DNA of 64,000 nt from Lachnospiraceae bacterium (lineage in GTDB: Bacteria; Bacillota; Clostridia; Lachnospirales; Lachnospiraceae). Shown piece by piece: positions 19,493 through 53,278 of this stretch. Position 1 is the first letter of the stretch; every line of letters begins with the position of its first letter. The notes under the pieces are model-generated. The model was given only the letters and a program-made list of their open reading frames with translations, was not told where the DNA came from and did not search any database. A program made the position numbers and the translations under genes. The stretch covers positions 11,131 through 75,130 of the forward strand of contig SVFO01000016.1 in assembly GCA_015056795.1 (NCBI GenBank). Direction: 5' to 3'.

Positions 19493-19505
19493 ATGGAGAA
19501 GCTAA

Positions 19506-20408: not shown

Positions 20409-20421
20409 AACGGGAGAAACG

Positions 20422-22622: not shown

Positions 22623-22669
22623 TCGGAAAACCGCACGAAGAATCAATCTACAATGCGAGGATATTGTCC

Positions 22670-23671
22670 ATGCTTAGGGATACGGCGTTGGTTTCAATCG
22701 TTATTCCTGCCTACAATTGTCAGGATAAGATTTTACATACAATTAAATCTGTTTCAGGGCAATCATACGGTAATGTTGAAATGATTCTCTGTGATGATGG
22801 CTCGGCGGATCTCACTCTGTCCATTGCCAGAGAAGAGGCTTGTAAAGACCACAGGATCATTATCGTGAGCGATTCCAATCATGGTCCGGCTCATGCACGG
22901 AACGAGGGCATCAAGAGAGCACGTGGGAAGTACCTCGTGTTTGTCGATTCAGATGATTCCGTATCGGAGCATTATATTTCAGATATGCTGGAATTGGCGG
23001 AAGACAATGATTGCGATCTTGTGATCTCCGGATACAGGCGACGTTATGCCGATGGATCCGAACAGACTGTCCTTCCCCCGCCCGGCGTTTACGCAGCAGA
23101 CCGCTTTCCGGTGATTTTCGGTGAGCTGTTCAGAAAGAGCCTGATCCAGGGACCATGCTGGAAGATGTTCAGGATGGATGTCGTCAAAGAAAATCACGTG
23201 AGGTTCAGGGAAGATTGGAGGCTGGGCGAGGATGCCTGGTTCGTCTATTCTTATCTGGAACATGTCAAAAAGGCGGCTTTGGTCGATAAGGCGAACTATT
23301 CCTATACCATTCATGATAATGATAGCCTGAGCCGGGCTCCGACCATGGAAAAAATCGTCAACAACATTGCACTTACGAAAAAGCTTCTCACAGTTCAAGC
23401 CTTTGAATCGGCTTATGACTGCTTTGGGGAAGGCTTGTGCGGGAACTATACGGATTTTTGCGAAGGAATCCTTCGGGCAAAGCTTTCTTTCAACGAAAGG
23501 CTCTGCCAAATCAAAGCGGCCAACGACCATGTGCGCCGGTTCAAATGGTTTTTTGAATACAGGGAAAAGCATGCCGTCAGAATGCTTTACAGATTCCTGA
23601 TAAAACACAATTTCGCGGCAGCGATCTGTTTGCTGACATTTGCCCGTTTGAAAATCAAAAGGGTTCTATGA
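22670..23671 (+). CDS. Family 2 glycosyltransferase
   Basis: VSIVIPAYNCQDKI ... CDDGSAD ... FVDSDD. The ATG at 22670 avoids the 55-nt overlap implied by the ORF-track start. Confidence 0.8.
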   Translation: MLRDTALVSIVIPAYNCQDKILHTIKSVSGQSYGNVEMILCDDGSADLTLSIAREEACKDHRIIIVSDSNHGPAHARNEGIKRARGKYLVFVDSDDSVSEHYISDMLELAEDNDCDLVISGYRRRYADGSEQTVLPPPGVYAADRFPVIFGELFRKSLIQGPCWKMFRMDVVKENHVRFREDWRLGEDAWFVYSYLEHVKKAALVDKANYSYTIHDNDSLSRAPTMEKIVNNIALTKKLLTVQAFESAYDCFGEGLCGNYTDFCEGILRAKLSFNERLCQIKAANDHVRRFKWFFEYREKHAVRMLYRFLIKHNFAAAICLLTFARLKIKRVL

Positions 23672-40191: not shown

Positions 40192-41046
40192 ATGGCTGGG
40201 ACATTATATTTGTGCGCGACTCCCATTGGAAATCTGGGGGACATGACGCCGAGGGTCGTGGAGACGCTAAAGACCGTGGATTTGATTGCCGCGGAGGATA
40301 CGAGAAACAGCATCAAGCTTTTAAATCATTTTGAGATTCATACGCCCATGACTGCATATCATGAATTTAATAAGGTCGAGAAGGCGAAGGAACTCGTGCT
40401 AAAGCTTCTTGAGGGCACGAACGTCGCGCTGATTACGGATGCGGGCACTCCCGCCATTTCCGACCCGGGTGAGGTTTTGGTGCAGTATTGTCAGGAGGCA
40501 GGCGTGCCCGTGACGAGTCTTCCCGGCGCAGCGGCCTGCATTACGGCGCTGACGCTCTCGGGCCTGTCCACCAGACGCTTTTGCTTTGAGGGCTTTCTGC
40601 CGACGGAAAAGGCGGACAAGAAGGAGCGGCGTGCCATCCTTGAGGAGCTTAAGGGCGAGAGCCGCACCATGATCCTCTATGAAGCGCCCCATCATCTCAA
40701 GGCAACGCTGGAGGATCTGTATGAAGCGCTCGGAGACCGCCGGATTACCCTTTGCCGCGAGCTCACAAAGAAATTTGAGACCATCCTTCCGACGACCCTG
40801 GCTGAAGCGAACGCCATGTATGAGAAGGAAGAGCCGCGAGGCGAATATGTTCTTGTCATCGAGGGCAGGAGCCGCGAAGAAAAGATGCGGGAGGAGCAGG
40901 CCTCCTGGGAAAGCCTATCGATTGAGGAGCACGTGGCACATTACGAGGCTCAGGGCATAGACCACAAGGAAGCCATGAAGCTTGCCGCAAAGGACCGCGG
41001 CATCTCTAAACGCGACGTCTACGCCCACCTGCATGCTTCCAACTAA
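40192..41046 (+). CDS. rsmI: 16S rRNA (cytidine1402-2'-O)-methyltransferase
   Basis: GTLYLCATPIGNLGDMTPR, AEDTR, ITDAGTPAISDPG and LYEAPHH motifs. Confidence 0.9.
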   Translation: MAGTLYLCATPIGNLGDMTPRVVETLKTVDLIAAEDTRNSIKLLNHFEIHTPMTAYHEFNKVEKAKELVLKLLEGTNVALITDAGTPAISDPGEVLVQYCQEAGVPVTSLPGAAACITALTLSGLSTRRFCFEGFLPTEKADKKERRAILEELKGESRTMILYEAPHHLKATLEDLYEALGDRRITLCRELTKKFETILPTTLAEANAMYEKEEPRGEYVLVIEGRSREEKMREEQASWESLSIEEHVAHYEAQGIDHKEAMKLAAKDRGISKRDVYAHLHASN

Positions 41047-41104
41047 GCGTAAAAATATACAACCTTGCTTTGCAATAATCTCAATAGGATGTTTCGGACT
41101 GCCT

Positions 41105-41203
41105 TTAAGTTAAGCTTTTCATATCCTCGAGGGGAAGGTTTGGATTGTCTTTCTGGGTCTAAAGTCTACCAGAAAGACAATCCTAACCTAGCCCCGAGTT
41201 CTT
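41105..41203. repeat. Structured repeat element, copy B (stem 41137-41156 / 41169-41188)
   Basis: Aligns end to end with 10807-10904. Lies about 60 nt after the rsmI stop. Confidence 0.75.
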
Positions 41204-41224
41204 AAGGAAAAAAGGAGAAACAGT

Positions 41225-41401
41225 ATGGCTGCAAGTTGCGAATATTGCTGTTATTTTACGTATGACGAAGAGACGGAGGAGTATGTCTGCGACGTCAACA
41301 TGGATGAGGATGATTACGGAAGGCTCATGAGCAATGGCTTCCGGGAATGCCCGTATTTTAAGGACGGGGATGAATATAAGGTGGTTCGCCACCAGATGTA
41401 A
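41225..41401 (+). CDS. Small (58 aa) acidic Cys-rich protein, not in the ORF track (<60 aa)
   Basis: AAGGAGA SD is 7 nt before the ATG. MAASCEYCCYFTYDEETEEYVCDVNMDEDDYGRLMSNGFRECPYFKDGDEYKVVRHQM. Cys spacing suggests a small metal-binding fold. Confidence 0.6.
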   Translation: MAASCEYCCYFTYDEETEEYVCDVNMDEDDYGRLMSNGFRECPYFKDGDEYKVVRHQM

Positions 41402-41425
41402 ATTGGTACAAGAAGGAACAAAGCA

Positions 41426-42172
41426 TTGGAAAAGAAGATCTCATTTGCATATAAATGCATCAAGGCAAGCGTGCGGTTTTTCTATCCAAAGACGTCGGTT
41501 TATGGAGCGGAGAACCTGCCGGAGGGGCCCTGTATCGTTGTAGGGAATCACTCTCAGGCCAACGGCCCTATCGCAGTGGAGCTATATTTTCCAGGGAAGC
41601 ATGCGACCTGGACCATCGGGGAAATGATGGATCGAAAGACGGTTCCAGCGTATGCCTATCAAGATTTTTGGTCAAAAAAGCCCAAGGGGATTCGCTGGTT
41701 TTATAAGATTGTTGCGCATCTCATCGGTCCTCTTTCGGAATGTGTGTTTAATAATGCGGACACGATTCCTGTTTATAAGGACCGCAGGATTCTCGAAACC
41801 TTTCAGAAATCCGTGGATGCGATGAAGGAGGGAACTCGGGTGGTCATCTTTCCCGAGCAATATGACGAGTATAACAATATCGTGCACCAGTTCCAGCAAG
41901 GCTTTGTGGACGTGGCGAAGCGATATTACCGTGAGACGAAGGAGGAGATTTCCTTTGTACCCCTGTATGTCTGCCCGGCCCTAAAGCGGCTGGTGATCGG
42001 TAAGCCGATCTATTACAATCATGAGGCAAAGATCAAGGATGAGCAACTTCGGATCACGGAATATCTGATGGATGAAATCTCGGAGATGGCCTATGCGCTC
42101 CCAAGGCACAGGGTCGTGCCCTATCCGAACGTCTCGAAGAAGGAATATCCGGAGAACGTCAGAGAATCATAA
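41426..42172 (+). CDS. Lysophospholipid (PlsC-type) acyltransferase-like protein
   Basis: N-terminal hydrophobic segment, VGNHSQANGP at the HX4D position, and a FPE block (VVIFPEQ) typical of AGPAT-family proteins. Confidence 0.65.
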   Translation: MEKKISFAYKCIKASVRFFYPKTSVYGAENLPEGPCIVVGNHSQANGPIAVELYFPGKHATWTIGEMMDRKTVPAYAYQDFWSKKPKGIRWFYKIVAHLIGPLSECVFNNADTIPVYKDRRILETFQKSVDAMKEGTRVVIFPEQYDEYNNIVHQFQQGFVDVAKRYYRETKEEISFVPLYVCPALKRLVIGKPIYYNHEAKIKDEQLRITEYLMDEISEMAYALPRHRVVPYPNVSKKEYPENVRES

Positions 42173-42201
42173 CATTAACAAAAATTAGGCGGTAGAAAGC
42201 A

Positions 42202-42918
42202 TTGAACATAAAAAAACCTGAGGTGGATTACCTCAAATTCCGATTTTCAAAAATAAATAATCCCGAATATAAGCATTTATGGCTTTTACTAGGATGGGTT
42301 TGGTATTTGATCATGTACTTCCTTACGGAGAATCTGATTTCGCCGGAACAATGCCATGAGGTGCATAGCGTTGTCGATGATATTATACCGTTCAATGCGA
42401 ATTTTATCCTGGCCTATTGTTCCTGGTATTTCTTGCTTGTGGGGTCAATTTTGTATTTCATGCTTTATGACATAAAAAGCTTTGTCAGATTACAGAAATT
42501 TATCATCGCAACGCAGGTGATCGGCATTGGAACCTGCATTCTCTGGCCGTCCATCCAATATCTTCGACCGGCAGAGCCCACGGGAAATGCGTTTTGCGTG
42601 TTCCTCGTAAAATGCATATACGGCGTGGATACGCCGACGGGCGTTTGTCCGTCACTCCACGTGGGATATTCGATGGGAATTCTTTCCGCATGGTTGAAGA
42701 GAGAGGAGTCCAAACCCTGGTGGAAAGCCGTGATTACAATTTGGGTGCTACTCATTAGCATTTCCGTTTGCTTTGTAAAACAGCATTCCTTTACCGACGT
42801 ATGGGTGGCGGGAGTGATGTGTGCGCTGATCGAAATAGTACTGTTTCGGAAATATTGGATGGAGAAGATCTTTGCGGCAAAAAGGCAGCAGGCCTCTGAC
42901 AAGCTGGCGGAGAGCTAA
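42202..42918 (+). CDS. PAP2_C / sphingomyelin-synthase-like membrane phosphotransferase family protein
   Basis: 6 TM helices. CPSLHVGYS and KQHSFTDVWVAGV motifs (S-x-H ... H-x3-D). Confidence 0.6.
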   Translation: MNIKKPEVDYLKFRFSKINNPEYKHLWLLLGWVWYLIMYFLTENLISPEQCHEVHSVVDDIIPFNANFILAYCSWYFLLVGSILYFMLYDIKSFVRLQKFIIATQVIGIGTCILWPSIQYLRPAEPTGNAFCVFLVKCIYGVDTPTGVCPSLHVGYSMGILSAWLKREESKPWWKAVITIWVLLISISVCFVKQHSFTDVWVAGVMCALIEIVLFRKYWMEKIFAAKRQQASDKLAES

Positions 42919-42979
42919 GGCACGGGTCTGGAAAAAAGCAGAAGGCGGAGATCATTTGCGGAGTGGAAAGGGTGAACAT

Positions 42980-43831
42980 ATGGCAAAAAGAAGATGGGGT
43001 GACAGAAGAGACGGAAAACTCATTCGGGACATTGACGGCATGCATTACGTGATGCCTTTGATGTATCCAAACCGTTGCGATAATGAAGCCTTTATGACCA
43101 TGCACATACATCTGGATAAGACGGAGGAATATATCAGGCAATGGAATCAAGAGCATCCTGAGGAGAATTTGTCTCTCTTTCAGGTAGTGATTGCGGCGAC
43201 GCTGAAAACCATCTGGCATCGTCCGCAGATGAATCGCTTTATCGCGAACAAAAACATGTATCAGCGCAACGAAGTGACGGCAGCCTTTACCGTAAAGAAG
43301 ACCTTTTCGGACGAGGGGGATGAGACTCTGGCGCGGATCGTTGCAAAGAAGGACGATACCTTGCAGAGCCTAAATAAGCAGATTCAGGAGCAAATTATGC
43401 TCTGCAAAACCAGTACGGATGCCTCCACGGACGCCATGGAGATCATTAAGAAAATTCCCGGCAAGCATCTGATTGGCGTCATTGCGAGATTCCTTGACCG
43501 GCATGGCTGGATGCCGCAAAGCGTGATTGCAACGGATCCCTATCAGTGCTCCGTCGTGCTTTCAAATCTCGGATCCATCGGCATGAACATAGGCTATCAC
43601 CACCTGATGAACTGGGGGACGACGTCGATTTTTGTCGTGATCGGAAAAAAGCGAAAGAAACCCCGCTATCATCAGGATGGTCAGGTCAGCTTTGTGAAGG
43701 AACTGGATATTTCCTTTACCATTGACGAGAGAATTTCGGACGGCTTTTATTATGCAAGAACCTTGAAGCTATTGAAAAAATTGGTGGAAAATCCTGAACT
43801 TTTGGAGCTTCCCATGGAACAAGAGGTTTAA
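42980..43831 (+). CDS. Stand-alone 2-oxoacid-dehydrogenase E2/CAT-type acyltransferase catalytic-domain protein
   Basis: C-terminal ...SFTIDERISDGFYYARTLKLLKKLVENPELL mirrors the E2 DHRxxDG...P..L block. No lipoyl or E3-binding domains. Confidence 0.7.
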   Translation: MAKRRWGDRRDGKLIRDIDGMHYVMPLMYPNRCDNEAFMTMHIHLDKTEEYIRQWNQEHPEENLSLFQVVIAATLKTIWHRPQMNRFIANKNMYQRNEVTAAFTVKKTFSDEGDETLARIVAKKDDTLQSLNKQIQEQIMLCKTSTDASTDAMEIIKKIPGKHLIGVIARFLDRHGWMPQSVIATDPYQCSVVLSNLGSIGMNIGYHHLMNWGTTSIFVVIGKKRKKPRYHQDGQVSFVKELDISFTIDERISDGFYYARTLKLLKKLVENPELLELPMEQEV

Positions 43832-43888
43832 GCCGTTCGGTGGCAGGTAACAGTAAAGACACGGAATTTTGGCAAGGAGGAGTATGAC

Positions 43889-44872
43889 ATGTTTTGTGTA
43901 GAATGTGGCAAAGAACTTCCTGACGAAGCAATATTTTGTGACAACTGTGGGACTCGCATTCAGCAGGAAAAAGCAGACGAGTACGAGACAAAAAAGAAAG
44001 AAGAAAACGGACAAAAAGAAAGCCCAAACGTGGCGCGGATAATGGAACAGTTAGCTTCGACGCAGCCAGGTGAAGTGGCGCTGGATGCCTTCGGAAATCT
44101 GACGGGAGAAGCATCCGAATTGACATCCAAAGCCGCTGCGCCCGCCCTGGAAATCGTGGGTCCGTTCATGACCTTACTTCGCGGGGTGAAATCCTTCGCG
44201 CAAGGTTTTCTTGGCATGATCAAAAACAAACAATGGATCAAACTGGCATTGGCCATCCTGCTTGCGGCAGGATGGCTTGTTTTGATGATTCTGTCCTACA
44301 ACGAGACGGAAATAGATTTCCTGAACTGGCTGACCTTTGCTCAGGGAGGCATGGGGCGAAGTGTTGTCGGATGGCTTGGCGGGTTGCTTGGAAAAACGAC
44401 CGTGGCGGCCATGCTGTTCTCCTTATTTGGAGGGGGCTTTAAATCCCTGGGAAGCGGCGTGAAGTCGCTTTTTAGAAAAACCAATTTTCAGAAAAACATG
44501 TTGGGCTCGCTGATGCTTGGCGCAGGCTTTGCGTTGATCGCCTATCAGGCCTTTGCGGGAGACGCAAGCCTTACGGACACCATGTCTGCCATCTCTGGCG
44601 CACTGCTTTCCGTCATGGCATTGGGACGTTGTAACGGATTCCTTTGGAGCATGGCGCAGTCCATAACCGCGAGAAAGACAGGGAAAATGCGTACTGCCCA
44701 AAAGGAAAAGCTTCAGGGCATGCTCACCGGCATGACCTTTGGTTTTACGTTGGGCGCACTTGTCACCTTCATTCCATTTGGATGGCTTCCCGTCATTCTC
44801 GGAGGTGTCCTCCTTGTCACAGGAATTGTTTTGACCCTTGTTTTTGGAAAAGCAAAGGAGGTGGCCGCATGA
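43889..44872 (+). CDS. Zinc-ribbon (CxxC-x10-CxxC) N-terminal domain fused to a Gly-rich multi-pass membrane domain
   Basis: MFCVECGKELPDEAIFCDNCG. At least 5 hydrophobic Gly-rich helices. AAGGAGG SD upstream. Confidence 0.7.
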   Translation: MFCVECGKELPDEAIFCDNCGTRIQQEKADEYETKKKEENGQKESPNVARIMEQLASTQPGEVALDAFGNLTGEASELTSKAAAPALEIVGPFMTLLRGVKSFAQGFLGMIKNKQWIKLALAILLAAGWLVLMILSYNETEIDFLNWLTFAQGGMGRSVVGWLGGLLGKTTVAAMLFSLFGGGFKSLGSGVKSLFRKTNFQKNMLGSLMLGAGFALIAYQAFAGDASLTDTMSAISGALLSVMALGRCNGFLWSMAQSITARKTGKMRTAQKEKLQGMLTGMTFGFTLGALVTFIPFGWLPVILGGVLLVTGIVLTLVFGKAKEVAA

Positions 44873-47800
44873 GAAAGAGACGAATGAAACGCATCACGGG
44901 ATGGTTGGTCGCTGTTTTGGTGACATGCCTTACCCTTGCGGCTCCGGTTATGGCAGCCATGACCAGCGCGGAAGACTTGGCGTGGGCTAGAACTACGAGC
45001 CTTGAGGAAGTTAGGAGTAAGCTGGGAGATTTACAGAAGTATTTGGTTCCGTTTGACGATTGGTATACCTACCGCTATTGGGTGCAATATCGCCTTGGCG
45101 GCGGCACCAATCAGGGAAATGCAGATGGCTACAGCAACACTCTTTCGTATATTGTCGGGACGGATGTAATAACGGATCAAAAATATCAATCTGGACTAAC
45201 AATAGCATATTGCCGTTTTGATTTAGAGTTGCCTGATCTTCCACATTTTGATGGACATGAGAATCATGTATTCTACTATGTTGAAACACCCTCTTCAACG
45301 GAATGGGAAGAGATTAAGGAATATAATCATCTCAAGGAGGATGCAAACGGCGGATATATCACTAGTATTGGCGGGTATCCTGCAAAAGGTTATTATACCT
45401 GGAACAAAACAGGTTACAACTTGGAGGTTTACGTAAATTTGCATAATCTGATGCCATGGGCTCCGGAAAATGAGACAAAGAGATGTATTCTCTATTTTCA
45501 TATCAAATCGTATTCTAATGAAGAAGCGCTAGCCAAGGCAAGGCAAATTGAAGAACTGATCAAAAACTGGCAGCCCAAGCTCTCTGATCCCGTGGTGATC
45601 GGAGCGGATCCCGAACTGTTCGAGAAATATGGCATTAAAACTGGAGGAGTAGATGTCGTGGTCGATACCTACGCGGAGGATGAGCCCGGCGAAGACAGTA
45701 CGATTTCTTCCAATGAGGACGATAAGTCTGGTAAAAAGGAAGGCAATAAAGAACGCGACAAGGACGAGGACAAGAAATCAAAGGGTCATGAGGACGGAGG
45801 AACAACGATTCCGGCGATTATTATCCTTGGGACGCTGGGCACGGCAGGCGCGGCAGCGGCAGCGGGAGCAGCAGGAGCGGGCGCAGGAAGCGGAAGTGAA
45901 AAACCAGACGGATCCGACGAAAAGAAGCGTTCCACCTTCAAAATGTATATCAACAAGGATTTTGGCAATAAACTGAAGAAGGGCGATGAACCCAAGGCAG
46001 TTTATGCGAGAATTGTGGAGAGAAAGCCGAGCGGCGAGGAGGTCGACAGGACGGACCTTACGGAGCAAATCCAGGTCTTTTCTTCTGATGGATCGCTTGT
46101 CGTGACGGACGGCGGCATGAGCACGAACGGGTATCGCTGTGCCATGGCCTGCGTGCCTGAAGTGGACGAACCAGAGTCCGAAGGAAAGGTTAGCTTTTTC
46201 TTTGAGGGCGAGGGTGGCACCTTTACGCAGAATGTCATCTTTAATATTACCATTCCTGGAATTAAGTTCTTCCAGGATAATTTGACGCTGCCTGCGGGAG
46301 AACTGGATGAGCCCGAATTCCTGCCCTTTGAGGTTCAGGAAATGGGCGATAAATATGACATAGAGGTTTCCTATAACGGCGAGGATTATGAGATTGATCT
46401 GGCGGAATGTGACGATCCCGAGATGAAGGACGTGCACTATGTCGCACTCATGGAAAAGAATAAACAGGTATTTGACGCCGGTGTTTATACGGAATCCTGG
46501 GTGAACGTGACGGTGAAGAACGAGACCCAAAAGATTACCGCGAGTGTAAAGATCATTCGCATGAGCATGGGCCTGAACGTCACCGTAAAGGCGCTGAACT
46601 GCTATCGCGTGCCCAAGAAGGAATCCGCGGGCAAGGAAATGAAGAAGATGACGATTGCGGATTTTGAAACCGCGACCACGGAAGCCATGGCCTATGTTCT
46701 GTACTATGACAAGGAAGAACACGTGGTGCGTCAGCAGGCGGCTTTCCCGTCGGTAACCTTAGAGCCTCTTGACGGCGAAGCGGAGGAGAGAAAGAAGCAG
46801 GTCAGCGAATCCCTTGCGCAGATTAAGATAAACTGCAAGCTTCTGCGCACGGAGGATCAATTTTCTGTCTGTGTATTTGTTTGTGAAGGCGGATTCCTGG
46901 ATGCTCCGGCCAGATACAACGTGAAGCTATGCATGACTGCGGAAATCCCTGTAGGAGAAGGGGAAAAGCAGCACATGGTGAAGTATCAGGCCGAGCGTAT
47001 CGTGCTTTTGCGTAGCCAGCCCAGCAGGATTGTGGCGGGTGTGAAAGAAAACTATGAAGTTGACAAATATGACGATCAGATCACGGACATGCTGTATCGG
47101 ATCAAAGAGATCGTGTTTGACAACTACATGAACCATCTGTTTTCTTTGTATCACATGATCGACCGCATGACGGACGGATACGACCGCGCGTATGGCTATG
47201 ATCCTTACCAAGTGGCAAAGGTGGTTGACGTTTGGGACAGGTTCCAAAGAGGGGAATTACTGGGCGCCAACGCGGAGGCGAAAGGCTACGGCGTGGCGGA
47301 CGAGCTGGAGGCGCTGGCGGCGGCCACGAGAAGCTGGGACGGTTGGCAGGGCATTGTTCTCAGGATTTCCCTTGACGTCATGACCGGCGGTGCGTCGGAG
47401 ATTGCCATGGTGGCCTTGGACATGAACCGCGGTGCCATGGACTACCGCAAGGAGACCGGAGGACAGGGTACGGCATTTGGTTATTTCAAGGCAGCGGGAA
47501 TTCCGCTTTTGTTTGGTGCAGGATTTGGCGTGGCGGCAGCCGTGGGTAAGGGCGCATCCAAGCTGGTTGGAACGCAGGCAAAGAAGCTTTTCCCGAAGAA
47601 GACGGCGGCACTGTTAAAGAAGGCAGAGGCCGTGAAAAACACGGCGAAGGAGATGGCGGAGCTCGCAGCCAAGGACGTGAAAGCTGCGGCGGGTTACGTA
47701 AGCTCAGTCATTCCACAGGGTGCCAAAACGGCCAGTGCTAAGATCGGGAATCTCGTGAATGCGGTTGTGGAAACCGTGGACAGCGTTGATCCCAGACTTT

Positions 47801-49167
47801 ACGTACCGAAAGCAAAAATGGCGAATAGCGTGGTAAGCACCAGCGTTAACAAGGGTAAGACCACGGGCGACGCATTGATTGGTGAGGCAAAGGCGGCGCA
47901 GAAAAACATACGCGAGAAGTGCATCGACATGGCGGGAAATGCTACGAACAAAGAGGGCGAGATCATTTATAACGAGATGATCGCGGCGAAAAAGGCGCTT
48001 CAGGCGGATCCTACAAGTGGTGCAGCGCAGCTTCGATACAATCAGTCCCTGATGGAGTTTAAGGCGAGCCATGCGGCAATTGAGCATGCCAACAGCATCA
48101 TGCCCGGTCAAAACCTGAATATGCGTGAAATGATCAACGCGGATCTTGAAAAGATGACATCTATGGTAGAAGGTAAGGTAAAGACCAAGGCTGGAGATTG
48201 GTATAACATTGATCCAAATACGGTGAAGGTGGAGCGGGCAACGGCAAACAAGGGTGCAGGTCTGAAGTTTGGACGAGACTGTGACATGACGCCGAAGGTT
48301 GTCACGAAGGAGGGTGGTACAAAATACATAAGTCAGGCCACGACGGACACAATTTTGGAAGAAGCCGTTCATGAGACCATTGAAGAGACATGTGGAAAGG
48401 AGTTCGCAAATCAATTTGCACCGAAAGGTAAATTCTCCCAGAAGATGGATTTCACGGGGTGTACCGTGCAACACGCGGATTATTTCCAAGGCGGTCTGGA
48501 CACCGTGCAGCAGGTGACGGATAAGGCACGCATGAGTGAGTTTATGGGAGCGGAGCAAGCCAGAAGCGTGGCAGATACGCTTCGCTACAAGGGAGTGCAT
48601 CCTTATGAGGCCGGCGCAAAGCTAGAAAAGGAAGTGCTTTCCAAGCTGACGGACGGGGAGGCGGATGCCCTGCTTAAGGAGTTGGAGGCTTATGCAAAGG
48701 CCGACGCGAATGTTGCCAAAACCATGCAATTGTCCGAAAACGCAAAGAAATTAAAAGAGGCCTATGCACTGATGGAAGAAGGCTTGTATCAACCCTCAAA
48801 ATATGGGAAAAAAGTTGTGGAGAAGGAATGGGTATCCATTAAGGCTGGTTACGGGGAAACGCTCACGGGTCAGGATTATGTGAATGCACGCATTCTTGAC
48901 CGTGGAAGCGGACAGGCGTTGACGGAAGAGATGAAGCATCGCACGGAGGAATGGGTAGGAGAGCGTATTACTCTTTCTGAAGCCAGAAAGGCCTGCGAAT
49001 TAAATGGCACCACCATCGAAAAAGCAATTAAAGGCGTTGGGGACGCTTTTGAAAGACTGGACAAGAATTTCAAATATGGTTCCGTTTCCTCGGTGACGAG
49101 TGCCGTTGGAATAGGCGGCGCGATCAACGCTGGCCGGAATGCCACAAATGGTTCCAAGAAGAAATAA
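44869..49167 (+). CDS. Orphan 1,432-aa membrane protein (signal peptide, ectodomain, acidic linker, TM helix, about 1,090-aa C-terminal region)
   Basis: ATGA start/stop overlap with the upstream gene. MRKRRMKRITGWLVAVLVTCLTLAAPVMA signal-like N-terminus. TM at nt ~45803-45890. No family recognised. Confidence 0.7.
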   Translation: MRKRRMKRITGWLVAVLVTCLTLAAPVMAAMTSAEDLAWARTTSLEEVRSKLGDLQKYLVPFDDWYTYRYWVQYRLGGGTNQGNADGYSNTLSYIVGTDVITDQKYQSGLTIAYCRFDLELPDLPHFDGHENHVFYYVETPSSTEWEEIKEYNHLKEDANGGYITSIGGYPAKGYYTWNKTGYNLEVYVNLHNLMPWAPENETKRCILYFHIKSYSNEEALAKARQIEELIKNWQPKLSDPVVIGADPELFEKYGIKTGGVDVVVDTYAEDEPGEDSTISSNEDDKSGKKEGNKERDKDEDKKSKGHEDGGTTIPAIIILGTLGTAGAAAAAGAAGAGAGSGSEKPDGSDEKKRSTFKMYINKDFGNKLKKGDEPKAVYARIVERKPSGEEVDRTDLTEQIQVFSSDGSLVVTDGGMSTNGYRCAMACVPEVDEPESEGKVSFFFEGEGGTFTQNVIFNITIPGIKFFQDNLTLPAGELDEPEFLPFEVQEMGDKYDIEVSYNGEDYEIDLAECDDPEMKDVHYVALMEKNKQVFDAGVYTESWVNVTVKNETQKITASVKIIRMSMGLNVTVKALNCYRVPKKESAGKEMKKMTIADFETATTEAMAYVLYYDKEEHVVRQQAAFPSVTLEPLDGEAEERKKQVSESLAQIKINCKLLRTEDQFSVCVFVCEGGFLDAPARYNVKLCMTAEIPVGEGEKQHMVKYQAERIVLLRSQPSRIVAGVKENYEVDKYDDQITDMLYRIKEIVFDNYMNHLFSLYHMIDRMTDGYDRAYGYDPYQVAKVVDVWDRFQRGELLGANAEAKGYGVADELEALAAATRSWDGWQGIVLRISLDVMTGGASEIAMVALDMNRGAMDYRKETGGQGTAFGYFKAAGIPLLFGAGFGVAAAVGKGASKLVGTQAKKLFPKKTAALLKKAEAVKNTAKEMAELAAKDVKAAAGYVSSVIPQGAKTASAKIGNLVNAVVETVDSVDPRLYVPKAKMANSVVSTSVNKGKTTGDALIGEAKAAQKNIREKCIDMAGNATNKEGEIIYNEMIAAKKALQADPTSGAAQLRYNQSLMEFKASHAAIEHANSIMPGQNLNMREMINADLEKMTSMVEGKVKTKAGDWYNIDPNTVKVERATANKGAGLKFGRDCDMTPKVVTKEGGTKYISQATTDTILEEAVHETIEETCGKEFANQFAPKGKFSQKMDFTGCTVQHADYFQGGLDTVQQVTDKARMSEFMGAEQARSVADTLRYKGVHPYEAGAKLEKEVLSKLTDGEADALLKELEAYAKADANVAKTMQLSENAKKLKEAYALMEEGLYQPSKYGKKVVEKEWVSIKAGYGETLTGQDYVNARILDRGSGQALTEEMKHRTEEWVGERITLSEARKACELNGTTIEKAIKGVGDAFERLDKNFKYGSVSSVTSAVGIGGAINAGRNATNGSKKK

Positions 49168-49182
49168 ATGGGAGGTGCAAGC

Positions 49183-50601
49183 ATGAGGGTATTGATTTTA
49201 AATGGTTCACCGTCAGGTGAAAACAGCATTACGCTGCAGACCATGCATTACATTCAAAAGTTTTACCCCAAGCAGGAATATCATGAGCTCCACGTAGGGC
49301 AGAAGATCCGGATGTTTGAGACGGACTTCTCGAAGGCGGCGGAGGAGCTTAAGGCTGCAGAGTTAGTGGTCTTCTGTTATCCCGTCTATACTTTTTTAGC
49401 ACCGGCGCAGCTTCACCGTTTTATCGAACTGATGAAGGAGAGTGGGATTGATTTTCGTGGAAAGTACGCGACGCAGGTAACGACCTCCAAGCATTTTTAT
49501 GACGTTACGGCACATGAATACATGCGTGAGAACGCCGAGGACATGGGATTTACGGTGATCAGGGGCCTTTCGGCGGACATGGAGGACCTTCTGCATCCGA
49601 AGGGTCAAAAGGAGGCGCGGGCATTCTTCCGACATGTCCTTTGGTCAATCAAATATGACAGGGGAGAGCTGCCCAAGGCAACTGCGGAAATTGATCAGGG
49701 AAAGAAGATCGCCATTGTGGCCGACGTCGCGGAGGGCAATGAGGTGTTGCCAAAGATGATCGAGGAGTTTCAGGCGGCATCGGCGGCGGAAGTCACCGTA
49801 GTCAATATCCGTGAGTTTCCTTTCGCGGGCGGGTGTCTTGGCTGCTTCCACTGCGCGGCGGATGGCACCTGCATCTATAAAGATCGGTTCGATGAGTTCC
49901 TTCGGGAGAAGATCCAGACGGCGGATGCCTGCGTTTACGCCTTTTCGATCAAGGATCATTCCATGGGGCAGCGCTTTAAGCTCTTTGATGACAGACAGTT
50001 TTGTAATGGTCACCGCACCGTGACCATGGGAAAACCCGTGGGATATCTCATTGACGGGGATTACAAGAAGGAACCCAACCTGCGGACGCTGATCGAGGCG
50101 AGGGCACAAGTGGGCGGCAACTATTTCGCGGGCGCCGTGGCGTGGACTGATACGGTGCAGGCTCACGGAATGACGGAACAATATGAAGTAAAAGCAGGCG
50201 AAGATGGGACGGCAGATGTCGCGATGGCGGGAAAAGCCGGAACAAAAGGGCAAAGCGAAGGAAACGTCAAGGTGGAGATCCGGCGGCTTGCGGCAGAGCT
50301 TTCTTACTGCATGCGTCATCGTTATAATCAGCCCGCCGATTTTTATGGCGTGGGCGGAATGAAGATCTTCCGCGACCTGATCTACCAGATGCAGGGCATG
50401 ATGCGGGAGGACCACAGGTTCTACAAGGAGCATGGCTTCTACGACTTCCCGCAAAAGCGCATGGGAACGATTCTGGGAATGTATCTCGTGGGAGCGATGA
50501 TAAACAATCCAAAGCTCAGTAAGAAGATTGGCGGCAACATGACCAAGGGAATGCTAATGCCTTATCAGAGCGTAATTGACAAGGCAAAGCCGCGTAAATA
50601 A
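49183..50601 (+). CDS. Two-domain flavodoxin-like NAD(P)H-dependent oxidoreductase / iron-sulfur flavoprotein-like
   Basis: MRVLILNGSPSGENS flavodoxin-fold start. Second domain has the GGCLGCFHCAADGTC Cys motif. GGAGG SD lies just after the stop codon of the upstream gene. Confidence 0.65.
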   Translation: MRVLILNGSPSGENSITLQTMHYIQKFYPKQEYHELHVGQKIRMFETDFSKAAEELKAAELVVFCYPVYTFLAPAQLHRFIELMKESGIDFRGKYATQVTTSKHFYDVTAHEYMRENAEDMGFTVIRGLSADMEDLLHPKGQKEARAFFRHVLWSIKYDRGELPKATAEIDQGKKIAIVADVAEGNEVLPKMIEEFQAASAAEVTVVNIREFPFAGGCLGCFHCAADGTCIYKDRFDEFLREKIQTADACVYAFSIKDHSMGQRFKLFDDRQFCNGHRTVTMGKPVGYLIDGDYKKEPNLRTLIEARAQVGGNYFAGAVAWTDTVQAHGMTEQYEVKAGEDGTADVAMAGKAGTKGQSEGNVKVEIRRLAAELSYCMRHRYNQPADFYGVGGMKIFRDLIYQMQGMMREDHRFYKEHGFYDFPQKRMGTILGMYLVGAMINNPKLSKKIGGNMTKGMLMPYQSVIDKAKPRK

Positions 50602-50610
50602 AATCGGCGC

Positions 50611-50679
50611 GGCAGGTGAGAAAAGGCTTGATAGGCAAGTGAGAAAAGGCTTGATAGGCAAGCGAGAAAAGGCTTTATG
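50611..50679. repeat. 23-bp intergenic tandem repeat, 3 copies
   Basis: GGCA(G/A)G(T/C)GAGAAAAGGCTT(G/T)AT(A/G) units at 50611, 50634 and 50657. Confidence 0.85.
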
Positions 50680-50745
50680 GGTTTACAAGGAAAATAATTT
50701 AGGAACGATAAGAAACATCAGTATAAGATGGCAGGAGGGAAAAAT

Positions 50746-51789
50746 ATGAGAACGTTAGAAGGATTTCACAAGGGCGTGAATTTGGGCGGTTGGCTTTCGC
50801 AGTGCGGCGAAGGAAATTACACGAAAGAGCATTTTGACACCTTTATGATAGAGCGTGATTTTGCGCTGGTGAAGGAGTGGGGATTGGATCACGTGCGCGT
50901 TCCCGTGGATGCGGAGACGATTCAGGAGGAAGACGGAACCATGAAGGAGGATGGTCTCGCGTATATTGACAAGGCTATCGCATGGTGCCAAAAGTATGGT
51001 CTTGGCATGGTGCTTGATCTTCACAAGGCCCATGGCTATGTCTTCGATGACGCGAATAACTGCCAGTTCTTTTATCAGGAAAAGCTTCAGGACATCTATG
51101 TGGAGCTTTGGAAATGTCTTGTGACAAGGTATGGAAAATATCGTGATTTTGTATTGTTTGAGCTCTTAAATGAAGTGACCTCCAAGGAATTTACGGACCC
51201 CTGGAACAAGATCGCCGCGAGAACCATCAAGGCGATCCGTGAGATCGATAAGGAAGCACGCATTGTCGTTGGCGGCATCTACAACGACAGCATTTATGGA
51301 CTGACGCTGCTGGATCCTCCTGCGGATGAGAACATTGTGTTTACCTTCCATTGCTACAGCCCGCTGGCCTTTACGCATCAGGGCGCGCACTGGGTGGATC
51401 GCATGCCCAGAGACCCTGAAAAGTGGAAGTTCTCCTATCCCGGAACGGTTGCAGCCTATAAGGCCAGATCTGAGGAATTCTTTGGACATGATTTTGATTC
51501 CGAATTCCCTGATACGCTGCCGGAGCAGATGAATGGCGCTTACTTTGAGAACCTCATGCAGCCCGCCCTGCAGGTTGCCGAGAAGTACAACGTGCCCCTT
51601 TATTGCGGCGAGTACGGCGTCATAGATTTGGCAGACCCGAAGGATGCGCTTGCTTGGTACAAGGACATGAACAGCGCTCTGGAAAAGTTTGGCATTCACC
51701 GTGCGGCATGGTCACATCACGGCATGAACTTCGGCCTTGCAGATCCTTGGCTGGATGGCGTAAGGGATCAGCTGGTGAAGTATCTGTAA
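50746..51789 (+). CDS. Glycoside hydrolase family 5 (cellulase-type), no signal peptide
   Basis: GVNLGGWL, acid/base FELLNEV and nucleophile CGEYG motifs. Confidence 0.85.
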   Translation: MRTLEGFHKGVNLGGWLSQCGEGNYTKEHFDTFMIERDFALVKEWGLDHVRVPVDAETIQEEDGTMKEDGLAYIDKAIAWCQKYGLGMVLDLHKAHGYVFDDANNCQFFYQEKLQDIYVELWKCLVTRYGKYRDFVLFELLNEVTSKEFTDPWNKIAARTIKAIREIDKEARIVVGGIYNDSIYGLTLLDPPADENIVFTFHCYSPLAFTHQGAHWVDRMPRDPEKWKFSYPGTVAAYKARSEEFFGHDFDSEFPDTLPEQMNGAYFENLMQPALQVAEKYNVPLYCGEYGVIDLADPKDALAWYKDMNSALEKFGIHRAAWSHHGMNFGLADPWLDGVRDQLVKYL

Positions 51790-51838
51790 AGGATGCGTGA
51801 GAAGCAAATAGTCGTTTTACGAGGATTGAAAAAAGGAC

Positions 51839-52435
51839 ATGAACGAAAGACTAGAGCCTCAGGCAGAGGTACGGCTTGCAACGCTGGAGGATGCGGAGCG
51901 GCTGCTAGAGATTTATCAATATTACGTGGAGAACACGGCCATAACGTTTGAGTATGAGACGCCTACCCTGAAGGAATTTCAGGGTAGGATGTCTTCGATT
52001 ATGGAAAAATATCCTTATCTTGTCGCCGTGCAAGGCGGCAGGATCGTAGGGTATGCCTATGCGGGAGCCTTTCACCCGCGGGCGGCCTATCACTGGGCAT
52101 CGGAGGTTACCATCTATTTGGACAGGGACGCGCGAAAGGCGGGGCTTGGAAGGCTCCTATATGAGCATCTGGAGGAGTGTTTGAAGCAGATGGGGATTTT
52201 GAATTTATATGCCTGCATCGGATATCCCGAGACGGAGGACGAGTACCTGACCGCGAACAGTGCAAGGTTTCATGAGCACATGGGATACCGTTTGGTTGGG
52301 ACCTTCCAAAACTGCGGCTATAAGTTTCAGCACTGGTATCACATGATCTTCATGGAAAAAATGATCGGGGAACACGTGACGGGTCAAGCGGAGGTAATCT
52401 GGTTCCCAGAGATAAAAAACAAGGATGACAGGTAG
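51839..52435 (+). CDS. GNAT N-acetyltransferase (phosphinothricin-acetyltransferase-like)
   Basis: PAT-like N-terminus (ATLEDAERLLEIYQYYVENTAITFE) and acetyl-CoA loop (RDARKAGLGRLL). Confidence 0.8.
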   Translation: MNERLEPQAEVRLATLEDAERLLEIYQYYVENTAITFEYETPTLKEFQGRMSSIMEKYPYLVAVQGGRIVGYAYAGAFHPRAAYHWASEVTIYLDRDARKAGLGRLLYEHLEECLKQMGILNLYACIGYPETEDEYLTANSARFHEHMGYRLVGTFQNCGYKFQHWYHMIFMEKMIGEHVTGQAEVIWFPEIKNKDDR

Positions 52436-52438
52436 AGC

Positions 52439-53278
52439 ATGGAAAGAAAAACCAAGATTTTAGCTCTTGTTGGGAAGGGCGGCGTCGGGAAGACGACGCT
52501 CTGCTCGGCGTTTGTGCGGCTGTTAAGTGAACAAAATCCGGAGGCAAGGATCCTGGCCATCGACGCGGATCCGGCCGTGGGACTTGCTACGGCGCTTGGC
52601 GTGGAGGTCAAGGAAACCCTGGATGACCTTCGCCTTGCAATTATCGAAAAGGCCGCGCAGGGCGCCGGGAAGGAGGCCGTTGAGCTTCTCGGCGAGGTCC
52701 GCTATCGCATCTTTGATGCTCTGGTGGAGGCCGGAAACATCGCCTTTTTGGCCATCGGACGGCCGGAGGGTGCGGGGTGCTACTGTGCCGTAAATGCCTA
52801 TCTGAAAGAAGTCATTGAGATGATCAGCAAGGATTTTGATTATGTTGTGATCGATGGCGAAGCCGGGATTGAGCAGGTCAACCGCAGGGTCATGGAGAAG
52901 GTGACACACTTATTTTTGGTGACGGACGGAAGTAAAAAAGGGATGCAGGTCATCGAGTCCATTCGTCAGGTGGCGGATGAGCTGGTTTCCTATGAAAGGT
53001 GCGGCGTGATCGTGAATCGCATGGACGATCCCGAGCTTCTGTTAAGTTACGTTGATGCCAAGACGGCAGAGATGACAAGGAATGAGGCCGCAGGCAATCC
53101 AACGGGGGAGGATTTGGCACAAGCAAGTCTTCGGGGAATGGAGCTTCTCAGTATCATTCCCAGCGACCCCGCCCATGCAAAAAATGATATTTTAGGGAAA
53201 ACGATTTTCGACTTACCGCCGGACGCCCCGGTGCTTTTGGGCGCAGCGAAGGCCTTAAGGTATATGCTGCAGGTGTGA
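52439..53278 (+). CDS. CooC-type (MinD/ParA-class) nickel-insertion ATPase-like protein
   Basis: Deviant Walker A VGKGGVGKTT and a CxC motif (GAGCYCAVN) at the position of the CooC metal-binding Cys-x-Cys. Confidence 0.7.
   Translation: MERKTKILALVGKGGVGKTTLCSAFVRLLSEQNPEARILAIDADPAVGLATALGVEVKETLDDLRLAIIEKAAQGAGKEAVELLGEVRYRIFDALVEAGNIAFLAIGRPEGAGCYCAVNAYLKEVIEMISKDFDYVVIDGEAGIEQVNRRVMEKVTHLFLVTDGSKKGMQVIESIRQVADELVSYERCGVIVNRMDDPELLLSYVDAKTAEMTRNEAAGNPTGEDLAQASLRGMELLSIIPSDPAHAKNDILGKTIFDLPPDAPVLLGAAKALRYMLQV

What the first reader, a model, noticed from the sequence alone, without database searches (positions are those of the whole stretch)
43889..50601. Orphan module: zinc-ribbon membrane protein coupled to a 1,432-aa single-TM giant, followed by a double flavodoxin
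Gene 1 encodes a cytoplasmic CxxC-x10-CxxC zinc ribbon followed by at least 5 glycine-rich TM helices. Its stop overlaps the start of gene 2 (ATGA). Gene 2 has a signal-peptide-like N-terminus (…LAAPVMA/AM), then a roughly 280-aa Trp/Tyr-rich ectodomain, a roughly 45-aa D/E/K linker and an Ala/Gly TM helix (nt ~45803-45890). About 1,090 residues follow. They begin with beta-rich, Ig-like-looking modules (e.g. KVSFFFEGEGGTFTQNVIFNITIPG). They continue as a long Ala/Lys/Glu helical region with a second Gly/Ala hydrophobic patch (nt ~47480-47550) and an unassigned globular C-terminus. I recognise no catalytic motif, no LPXTG, no toxin or secretion-system signature and no known family in either protein. 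The SD of the next gene lies directly after the stop codon of gene 2, which suggests one transcript. That gene is a two-domain flavodoxin/iron-sulfur-flavoprotein-like oxidoreductase. A type-I membrane protein with a cytoplasmic part this large, coupled to a zinc-ribbon channel-like partner, looks like a trans-envelope signalling or scaffold device that I cannot place. This is my candidate for something undescribed, but novelty cannot be judged without searches.
Basis: partly seen in the sequence, partly recalled or inferred. Interest (0 to 1): 0.65.

Follow-up and report, generated by a model that had tools for sequence, protein, structure and literature searches.

The report
Undescribed two-protein membrane receptor module
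Two overlapping genes of a rumen Lachnospiraceae bacterium encode the two halves of a conserved membrane complex with no known relatives: its outer part varies from strain to strain and its large inner part is conserved, while the flavoprotein gene next door is only a neighbour.

Summary
Gene 1 (43889-44872) encodes a zinc ribbon plus a glycine-rich multi-pass membrane domain. Gene 2 (44869-49167, 1,432 aa) overlaps it by ATGA. It has a signal peptide, an ectodomain, one TM helix and about 1,090 cytoplasmic residues.

No Pfam, NCBIfam, PADLOC, PHROG or PDB-sequence match was found beyond the zinc ribbon. All named homologues are 'hypothetical'.

New findings:
- **A conserved pair.** The two genes stay adjacent across Bacillota and Acholeplasmataceae, usually with the same 4-nt overlap. 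In at least 8 representative proteins they are fused into one polypeptide, so they form one unit.
- **A large family.** An exhaustive profile search finds 519 clusters (50% identity), so the pair is not an orphan.
- **A variable ectodomain.** There are 8 unrelated types among 19 close relatives. Against the nearest genome the ectodomain shows 71% identity and dS 0.72, versus about 98% and 0.1 for flanking parts.
- **A conserved inner part.** It holds four Ig-like modules, helices and a C-terminal domain with near-invariant R…DxD[TS]…D…K…E…K.
- **The flavoprotein is not part of the module.** It is absent elsewhere, and it lies upstream of the pair in a syntenic relative.

Best reading (inferred): an outside-in receptor or sensor complex. 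Function is untested.

The parts
43889..44872 (+). Gene 1 (327 aa). N-terminal cytoplasmic zinc ribbon (aa 2-23), variable linker, conserved 'QPGE' segment, then a glycine-rich multi-pass membrane domain (aa 117-320).
   Evidence: ORF. Pfam PF13240, E=2e-8. Hydropathy. Family alignment with invariant Gly, Arg and Lys. 22 close clusters, on the same contigs as gene 2.
44855..44872 (+). Translational-coupling junction: SD AAGGAGGTG (44855-44863) and ATGA, where the start of gene 2 overlaps the stop of gene 1.
   Evidence: Sequence. The same 4-nt overlap occurs in L001, L002, L004, L005, L017, L019, L020, L023, L025 and L026.
44869..44955 (+). Gene 2 signal peptide or signal anchor (aa 1-29: MRKRRMKR, hydrophobic core, VMA/AM).
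   Evidence: Hydropathy 2.33. Present in 62% of full-length family members. In fusion proteins it directly follows the last TM helix and the basic loop of gene 1.
44956..45738 (+). Gene 2 exported ectodomain (aa 30-290), aromatic-rich and polymorphic.
   Evidence: 8 unrelated ectodomain types among 19 close relatives. Against L006: 71% aa identity, dS 0.72, dN/dS 0.25, versus dS about 0.1 in flanking parts. No Pfam hit in any member.
45739..45801 (+). K/E/D-rich linker (aa 291-311), present only in the closest relatives.
   Evidence: Alignment. Composition.
45808..45888 (+). Ala/Gly-rich transmembrane helix (aa 314-340). It is preceded by a conserved acidic GEDxGTxIP and followed by a basic KKRS.
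   Evidence: Across the family the N-flank has 0.9 K+R and 4.2 D+E, and the C-flank has 6.6 K+R.
45925..47028 (+). Four cytoplasmic beta-sandwich (Ig-like) modules (aa 353-720). The first, juxtamembrane module (FKMYINKxFG...ARIVE) is the most conserved part of the whole family.
   Evidence: AlphaFold pLDDT about 80-88. Foldseek hits to tandem Ig, cadherin and S-layer proteins, E about 1e-6. K363, F365, G366 and A380 are conserved in 92-99% of 167 sequences. Distant relatives share only aa 308-470.
47029..47808 (+). Helical region (aa 721-980). It includes the conserved YGYDPYQV and TGGASE motifs, the hydrophobic patch aa 875-893 and an Ala/Lys-rich stretch.
   Evidence: AlphaFold predicts helices but with pLDDT about 30 for aa 798-980. 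The patch is hydrophobic in only 23% of members.
47809..49167 (+). C-terminal helical plus small alpha/beta domain (aa 981-1432) with a near-invariant polar constellation: R1086, D1137-x-D1139-h-T1141 (nt 48277-48291), D1194, K1241, E1304, Q1308, K1311.
   Evidence: pLDDT 80-93. Conservation is 92-99% over 96-145 sequences at 50% identity or less. No PDB, Pfam or NCBIfam match.
49183..50601 (+). Neighbouring gene, not part of the module: a two-domain flavodoxin-like FMN reductase with a CxxCxxCx5C cluster. It is probably co-transcribed here only by position.
   Evidence: Pfam FMN_red, 62.9 bits. Not linked to the pair in other genomes, and its order is swapped in L005. No terminator-like site between genes 2 and 3.

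Best explanation
Genes 1 and 2 encode the two subunits of one conserved membrane complex. The complex belongs to an undescribed family that is widespread in uncultured gut and rumen Bacillota.

Shown:
- The genes are translationally coupled, stay adjacent across distant lineages and are fused into one polypeptide in several of them.
- The gene 2 product exposes a polymorphic, recombining ectodomain outside the cell.
- It crosses the membrane once through an Ala/Gly helix.
- It carries a conserved cytoplasmic arm of about 1,090 aa: four Ig-like modules, helices and a C-terminal domain with a near-invariant R...DxD[TS]...D...K...E...K site.

Inferred:
- The glycine-zipper helices of gene 1 pack around the small-residue TM helix of gene 2.
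- The Ig modules form a rod of about 15 nm that holds the C-terminal domain away from the membrane.
- The complex works as an outside-in receptor. An event at the variable ectodomain (a ligand, a phage or a neighbouring cell) is passed through the membrane to the conserved cytoplasmic domain.
- The acidic DxD...D site suggests a metal-dependent enzymatic or ligand-binding output. It may be nucleotidyltransferase-like.
- In several genomes a cytoplasmic double-HTH protein of about 600 aa is encoded beside the pair and may be the downstream regulator. The window has none.
- The flavoprotein gene is only a neighbour.
For: - **Pairing.** A gene 1 homologue lies next to a gene 2 homologue in almost all of 34 loci. 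This holds even where the gene 2 similarity is only the TM helix plus the first Ig module.
- **Fusions.** P0069, P0108, P0112, P0091, P0052, P0125, P0117 and P0073 are fusions. The P0069 type is seen on 5 independent contigs.
- **Family size.** 519 representatives at E<=1e-3.
- **Topology.** Charge bias is consistent over 147 members, and the fusion junction architecture agrees.
- **Ectodomain turnover.**
- **Ig modules and a confident C-terminal domain.**
- **Conserved polar site.**
- **HTH neighbour.** Present in 10 loci.
- **Paralogue arrays.** More than one pair per genome, as in sensor families.
- **Flavoprotein unlinked.**
Against: - No experiment bears on function, and no homology to any characterised protein was found.
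- The gene 1 model is unreliable (pLDDT 51). No complex model could be made.
- The catalytic reading of the DxD site rests on motif and secondary-structure order only. Profile searches against PDB, Pfam and NCBIfam gave nothing.
- Tandem Ig-like domains are unusual in the bacterial cytoplasm, so the topology needs experimental proof.
- The window lacks the HTH partner.
- The RNA data available are contig-level and flat, so the operon structure is not shown.
Confidence: 0.4

Rival explanations
1. Anti-phage or anti-mobile-element defence of the abortive-infection type. The polymorphic ectodomain senses phage adsorption or envelope damage, and the gene 1 glycine-zipper membrane protein is the pore-forming effector.
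For: - Patchy distribution, with near-identical short versions (about 994 aa) in Acholeplasmataceae, a Staphylococcaceae MAG and a Bacillota MAG. These sit next to IS21, IS3, serine recombinase, Fic and NYN genes.
- The pair is more diverged (73-78% nt) than its syntenic backbone (85-95%) and sits in a different slot.
- The ectodomain shows a recombination mosaic.
- A transposase, barnase-barstar or TIR-Sel1 gene lies nearby in some loci.
Against: - No PADLOC hit for any of the three proteins.
- No occurrence on viral contigs.
- In Lachnospiraceae and Clostridia most immediate neighbours are housekeeping genes: GH77, aspartokinase, tRNA synthetase, MscS, ThiT and lipid acyltransferases.
- No recognisable nuclease, NADase or other effector domain.
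Confidence: 0.2
2. A structural or adhesive envelope component. It would be a surface-exposed polymorphic protein (adhesin, or kin- or phage-recognition target) anchored to a cytoplasmic scaffold, with no signalling or catalysis. The ectodomain varies only because it is exposed.
For: - A variable exposed ectodomain.
- Ig-like rods and long Ala/Lys/Glu helices are typical of scaffolds.
- No catalytic family was detected.
Against: - The most conserved residues of the C-terminal domain are charged or polar (R, DxD, D, K, E, Q, K at 92-99%). This is unusual for a mere scaffold.
- The pair is present in wall-less Acholeplasmataceae.
- There is a recurrent adjacent HTH protein.
Confidence: 0.15
3. 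One reading: the zinc-ribbon protein, the giant and the double flavodoxin work together as a redox-coupled trans-envelope unit.
For: In this window there is no terminator-like site between genes 2 and 3, and the SD of gene 3 follows the stop of gene 2 directly. The same order is seen in L006 and L028.
Against: - The flavoprotein is absent beside the pair in L001, L002, L004, L023, L025 and L026.
- It lies upstream of gene 1 in syntenic L005.
- It clusters only with the window's own lineage.
Confidence: 0.03

Closest known systems
RsgI/SigI-type transmembrane sensors of Clostridia (multiple paralogues with different extracellular sensing modules and a conserved intracellular domain)
   Same: A bitopic protein that is variable outside and conserved inside. 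Several paralogues can occur per genome. A transcription-factor gene is often adjacent (here a double-HTH protein in 10 loci).
   Different: There is no RsgI_N anti-sigma domain and no sigma factor gene. The orientation is reversed: here the N-terminus is outside and the large conserved part inside. There is an obligatory polytopic partner. No sequence similarity was found.
TcaA and other Firmicutes membrane proteins with an N-terminal PF13240 zinc ribbon
   Same: A cytoplasmic N-terminal CxxC-x10-CxxC zinc ribbon followed by membrane helices. There is a weak NCBIfam hit to the TcaA zinc ribbon.
   Different: The score is 15.5 bits against a cut-off of 550. TcaA has one TM helix and a large extracellular domain. 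Gene 1 has a glycine-rich multi-pass domain and almost no extracellular part.
Membrane-anchored anti-phage systems such as Zorya (ZorAB) and Kiwa (KwaAB)
   Same: A small operon encoding a polytopic membrane protein plus a protein with a long cytoplasmic extension. Distribution is patchy.
   Different: There is no homology (PADLOC gave no hit). There is no MotAB-like or DUF4868 domain. The variable ectodomain and the Ig-like rod are not features of those systems.
Nucleotidyltransferase-fold (Pol beta-like) domains
   Same: The C-terminal domain has the motif order h-[ST]-G-[NS], then 10-16 aa, then D-x-D-h-[TS], then about 55 aa, then h-D-h. The predicted order of secondary structure is helix, strand, (loop), strand with DxD, helices, strand with D.
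   Different: No sequence or profile match to any NTase family or structure was found. The fold could not be searched on its own. The resemblance is a lead, not a test.
Filamin/titin-type intracellular Ig-domain rods
   Same: Tandem beta-sandwich modules on the cytoplasmic side, acting as a spacer.
   Different: Those are eukaryotic proteins. Only a generic fold resemblance was seen (TM-scores 0.1-0.35). No homology is claimed.

Membership tests
Pfam PF13240 Zn_Ribbon_1 (gene 1 N-terminus) | CxxC-x(8-20)-CxxC ribbon scoring above the gathering threshold | tested here: met
   34.1 bits against a cut-off of 25, aa 2-23. Conserved in 16 of 17 aligned partners.
TcaA (NCBIfam NF053815) | A full-length match at or above 550 bits: zinc ribbon, single TM helix and extracellular domain | tested here: not met
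   15.5 bits, zinc ribbon only.
Known anti-phage defence systems (PADLOC-DB 2.0.0) | A match of any component to a defence-system HMM | tested here: not met
   Genes 2 and 3 gave no hits. Gene 1 gave only E about 0.01 hits on the zinc-ribbon region.
Phage structural proteins such as tape measure (PHROGs) | A PHROG family match, or presence on viral contigs | tested here: not met
   Gene 2 gave no PHROG hit. Gene 1 matched only zinc-ribbon PHROGs of unknown function. No relative was found in IMG/VR.
Sortase-anchored (LPXTG) surface proteins | A C-terminal LPXTG motif, then a hydrophobic segment and a basic tail at the protein's end | tested here: not met
   There is no LPXTG. The hydrophobic segment with its KKRS tail is at aa 314-355 of 1,432, followed by 1,090 conserved residues.
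Tandem Ig-like beta-sandwich fold (aa 353-720) | A structural match of the predicted model to Ig, cadherin or Big-type tandem domains | tested here: met
   Foldseek probability 1.0, E about 1e-6, with protocadherins, SbsC, Sap and NCAM. The TM-scores are low because the arrays differ in geometry. This is a fold class only, not a family.
Nucleotidyltransferase fold (C-terminal domain) | hG[GS], [DE]h[DE]h on strand 2, h[DE]h on strand 3, within an alpha/beta/alpha sandwich | tested here: inconclusive
   The motif pattern and secondary-structure order are compatible. No profile hit was found to PDB, Pfam or NCBIfam. A fold search of the isolated domain was not possible.
HAD phosphatases | DxDx[TV] at the C-terminal end of strand 1 of a five-stranded Rossmannoid fold, plus motifs II-IV | tested here: not met
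   DxDx[TS] is present (98-99%). However, it lies at the start of a strand, and the domain has only about 4 short strands, followed by long helices that carry K1241 and E1304.
Flavodoxin-like FMN reductase (gene 3, neighbour) | A PF03358 match above threshold | tested here: met
   62.9 bits against a cut-off of 24, in two stretches.
Gene 1 and gene 2 as one functional unit | Conserved adjacency, translational coupling, and fusion in some genomes | tested here: met

The most novel reading that the evidence does not exclude
This is a new class of bacterial transmembrane receptor. A strain-variable ectodomain controls a previously unseen two-metal (nucleotidyltransferase-like) enzyme. The enzyme is held on a cytoplasmic Ig-domain rod and is assembled with a glycine-zipper membrane partner. 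Together they would form a surface-sensing signalling or immune pathway of gut and rumen Bacillota, with its own double-HTH output regulator in some lineages.
Probability: 0.2. Interest if true: 0.85.

Novelty: categorically new. Interest (0 to 1): 0.6.

Why it matters
This is a family of giant membrane proteins with more than 500 clusters and an obligatory partner. It is common in uncultured rumen and gut Clostridia and is completely unannotated. Its layout is a polymorphic exposed domain, a conserved cytoplasmic Ig rod and a domain with a near-invariant acidic site. That is the layout of a receptor with an intracellular output.

If so, it would add a new way for Gram-positive anaerobes to sense phages, neighbours or substrates at their surface. 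A cultured carrier exists: Butyrivibrio sp. XPD2006, protein WP_022766135.1. The question is therefore directly testable.

Tried and rejected
- **Family and structure searches.** Pfam, NCBIfam, PADLOC and PHROGs on the full proteins gave nothing beyond the zinc ribbon and FMN_red. Pfam on all 20 close gene 2 relatives, on distant relatives and on 22 isolated C-terminal domains gave nothing consistent. The same held for NCBIfam on the C-terminal domains. PDB profile searches with the whole gene 2 family, the C-terminal domain and the gene 1 family gave no hits, or zinc-ribbon hits only.
- **Foldseek.** The gene 2 cytoplasmic model was searched against PDB and BFVD. The Ig-array hits swamp the list, so nothing was learned about the C-terminal domain.
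- **Gene 1 model.** The AlphaFold model is too poor (pLDDT 51) to search.
- **Diversity-generating retroelement idea.** The pair has no repeat elsewhere in the 64 kb.
- **Operon confirmation by RNA.** The only RNA-labelled runs are contig-level with flat depth over 13-60 kb, so they are uninformative.
- **Deep synteny with lipid and envelope genes.** The window's neighbours cluster only with its own lineage.
- **Literature.** Searches on PF13240 and on zinc-ribbon, Ig-like and defence terms found nothing describing this pair.
- **Rarity.** The word-index homology search suggested extreme rarity (18-19 clusters). The exhaustive search corrected this to 519.
Full report
**1. The observation**

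The three ORFs exist as described.

Gene 1 (43889-44872, 327 aa):
- It begins with C3xxC6-x10-C17xxC20. This is the only part of either protein that any library recognises (Pfam Zn_Ribbon_1, 34.1 bits against a cut-off of 25).
- Behind it lie 5-6 glycine-rich hydrophobic segments.

Gene 2:
- It starts at ATG 44869 within ATGA, 6 nt after the SD AAGGAGGTG.
- The longer TTG-initiated ORF in the ORF list is not the gene. All homologues begin at the equivalent basic N-terminus.

Gene 3 more probably starts at ATG 49183 (MRVLIL), as in its orthologues, with its SD directly after the stop of gene 2.

**2. No known family**

- Pfam, NCBIfam, PADLOC and PHROGs give nothing for gene 2. For gene 1 they give only zinc-ribbon matches.
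- A PDB profile search with the whole gene 2 family returns no chain even at E<=10.
- The gene 1 profile hits only other zinc ribbons, such as ArnA.
- Every named homologue is 'hypothetical protein'. This includes WP_022766135.1 of the cultured Butyrivibrio sp. XPD2006.

**3. The pair is one unit**

- The word-index search found 18-19 clusters for gene 2 and 22 for gene 1, on the same contigs.
- In every context retrieved, a gene 1 homologue lies next to the gene 2 homologue. It usually lies immediately upstream, with the same 4-nt overlap (L001, L002, L004, L005, L017, L019, L020, L023, L025, L026).
- tblastn over 22 loci shows this holds even where gene 2 similarity is reduced to aa 308-470, the TM helix plus the first beta-sandwich. 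That group covers Eubacteriales, Bacillota, Acholeplasmataceae and Staphylococcaceae MAGs.
- At least eight representatives carry a complete gene 1 domain fused N-terminally to a complete gene 2 protein: P0069, P0108, P0112, P0091, P0052, P0125, P0117 and P0073.
- The P0069 type is seen at full length on five separate contigs, so it is not an assembly artefact.
- In the fusions, the last gene 1 helix is followed by a short basic loop and then by the gene 2 'signal peptide'. This fixes the relative topology of the two proteins.

**4. The family is large**

- An exhaustive profile search of 1.84 billion representatives finds 519 proteins at E<=1e-3 and 181 at E<=1e-30.
- Nearly all are 1,200-1,700 aa, with a variable N-terminal region of 250-560 aa and a conserved part of about 1,000 aa.
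- 'Orphan' is therefore wrong, but 'undescribed' stands.
- The pattern-based genome scan found 17 species genomes, which is a lower bound. They are Lachnospiraceae, Oscillospiraceae, Ruminococcaceae, Butyrivibrio, Acetatifactor and Acholeplasmataceae, mostly from rumen and gut.
- L006 (Lachnospiraceae RGIG6651, sheep rumen) is nearly identical and probably the source species.
- No relative lies on IMG/VR viral contigs.

**5. The flavoprotein is a neighbour**

- It is absent beside the pair in L001, L002, L004, L023, L025 and L026.
- In L005 the backbone is syntenic and 85-95% identical to the window: 2-oxoacid_dh-like acyltransferase, flavoprotein, GH5 cellulase, GNAT, CbiA, YkuD, TIR protein.
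- There the flavoprotein gene lies upstream of the pair, and the pair itself is only 73-78% identical.
- Any co-transcription in this window (no terminator-like site) is positional.

**6. Anatomy of the giant**

- *Topology.* Over 147 family members, the helix preceding the conserved region has an acidic N-flank (0.9 K+R, 4.2 D+E) and a basic C-flank (6.6 K+R). This places the conserved ~1,090 residues in the cytoplasm. The second hydrophobic patch is hydrophobic in only 23% of members and is not a general TM helix.
- *Model.* AlphaFold on aa 340-1432 (20-sequence alignment, mean pLDDT 69.8) gives four beta-sandwich modules at aa 353-720 (pLDDT about 80-88). It gives helices to aa ~793, an unreliable helical stretch at aa 798-980 (pLDDT about 30), and a confident helical plus small alpha/beta C-terminal domain at aa 981-1400 (pLDDT 80-93).
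- *Fold search.* Foldseek against PDB and BFVD returns only tandem Ig, cadherin, S-layer and phage-tail Ig arrays. This confirms the fold class of the rod but says nothing about the C-terminal domain.

**7. Conserved sites**

- In an HMM alignment of 167 representatives (50% identity or less), the juxtamembrane module is the signature of the family: K363, F365, G366 and A380 at 92-99%.
- The C-terminal domain carries R1086 (92%), D1137 (98%), D1139 (99%), T/S1141 (94%), D1194 (79%), K1241 (96%), E1304 (94%), Q1308 (90%) and K1311 (99%).
- The motif order is h-[ST]-G-[NS], then 10-16 aa, then DxDh[TS], then about 55 aa, then hDh. The predicted secondary-structure order is helix, strand, strand (DxD), helices, strand (D). 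Both are compatible with a nucleotidyltransferase-type two-metal site.
- A HAD reading of DxDxT does not fit the predicted secondary structure.
- This is a lead only. Profile searches of the isolated domain against PDB, Pfam and NCBIfam found nothing.

**8. The ectodomain turns over**

- Among 19 close relatives there are 8 ectodomain types with no BLAST similarity to one another.
- The types are shuffled relative to the cytoplasmic phylogeny. P0016 is 33% identical inside but shares the window's ectodomain type. P0007 is 70% identical inside but has an unrelated one.
- Comparison with L006:

| Region | dS | aa identity |
|---|---|---|
| gene 1 | 0.10 | 97.9% |
| gene 3 | 0.13 | 98.3% |
| gene 2, Ig region | 0.13 | 98.7% |
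| gene 2, ectodomain | 0.72 | 71% |

- The ectodomain dN/dS is 0.25. This is a recombination mosaic rather than simple positive selection.
- No template-like repeat of the pair exists in the window, so a diversity-generating retroelement is not the cause.

**9. Context elsewhere**

- A cytoplasmic protein of about 600 aa with two XRE-type HTH motifs flanks the pair in 10 loci, often divergently (L001, L004, L007, L014, L018, L031, L010/L025/L030, and a fragment in L015). It has no homologue in the window.
- Extra zinc-ribbon membrane proteins and second or third pairs occur in L004, L007, L008, L011, L025, L026 and L031.
- The short versions of about 994 aa sit among IS21, IS3, serine-recombinase, Fic and NYN genes.
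- In Lachnospiraceae and Clostridia the immediate neighbours are mostly housekeeping genes.

**10. Interpretation**

Firmly supported:
- A conserved, sometimes fused, two-subunit membrane complex of an undescribed family.
- A polymorphic exposed domain and a conserved cytoplasmic arm.

Inferred (confidence about 0.4): an outside-in receptor whose output is the C-terminal domain, with gene 1 as the membrane-embedded partner.

Rivals:
- An abortive-infection-type defence system (0.2). It is weakened by the lack of PADLOC hits and by the housekeeping contexts.
- A purely structural or adhesive role (0.15). It is weakened by the near-invariant charged site.
It is largely refuted by comparative context.

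**11. Novelty and score**

- Both proteins fail every membership test except the generic zinc ribbon and the generic Ig-like fold. No paper found describes them.
- I rate the pair as categorically new at the level of family and architecture.
- Interest is 0.6. It is a real, widespread, experimentally approachable unknown, but it has no demonstrated function.

Noticed in passing
window 41103-41203: A long palindromic element (CTCGAGGGGAAGGTTTGGATTGTCTTTCTGG...CCAGAAAGACAATCCTAACCTAGCCCCGAG) in the intergenic region after the rsmI-like gene. It appears to be multi-copy: the assembled contigs of four public runs all break there, and other contigs match it with 1-3 mismatches.
   Followed up: partly
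window 50602-50727: Three tandem copies of a ~23-nt unit (GGCAAG[T/C]GAGAAAAGGCTT[G/T]AT) between the flavoprotein gene and the GH5 cellulase gene. A strong sigma-70-like site (TTGACA-17-TAAAAT) lies at 50576-50604. L005 has a different tandem repeat at the equivalent position.
   Followed up: no
window 54863-57856: A 997-aa protein with an N-terminal TIR domain (PF13676, 79.9 bits) and five Sel1 repeats, four genes downstream of the module. Its middle and C-terminal parts are far more diverged from the L005 orthologue than the surrounding backbone.
   Followed up: partly
L001:12374-14188(-), L004:2753-4600(-), L007:5711-7519(-), L014:14262-16118(-), L031:16732-18516(-), L010:13265-14734(+): An uncharacterised cytoplasmic protein family of about 600 aa, with two XRE-type HTH motifs and an unknown C-terminal region of about 400 aa. 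It recurs next to the pair in other genomes. No homologue is in the window.
   Followed up: partly
L007:7659-17453 and 19029-22675; L031:2872-16709: Arrays of two or three 'zinc-ribbon membrane protein plus large exported protein' pairs or paralogues in one locus. This suggests an expanding family of such modules.
   Followed up: no
L019:8190-12067, L020:997-4874, L021, L022: Short versions of the pair (298 aa plus 994 aa). The copies read in full (L019, L020, L022) begin with near-identical sequences, in a Bacillota MAG and two Acholeplasmataceae MAGs; a Staphylococcaceae MAG (L021) gives tblastn matches with the same identities as L019. In L019 they sit beside IS21, IS3, serine-recombinase, Fic and NYN genes, which suggests horizontal transfer.
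   Followed up: partly
window 34896-37412 (-): An 838-aa dynamin-family GTPase (Dynamin_N, 69.5 bits) on the opposite strand, about 7 kb upstream of the module.
   Followed up: no
window 41000-53000 in runs X3-X8: Runs labelled METATRANSCRIPTOMIC hold the whole region in 13-60 kb contigs at flat depth. They behave like DNA assemblies and cannot be used as evidence of expression or operon structure.
   Followed up: yes
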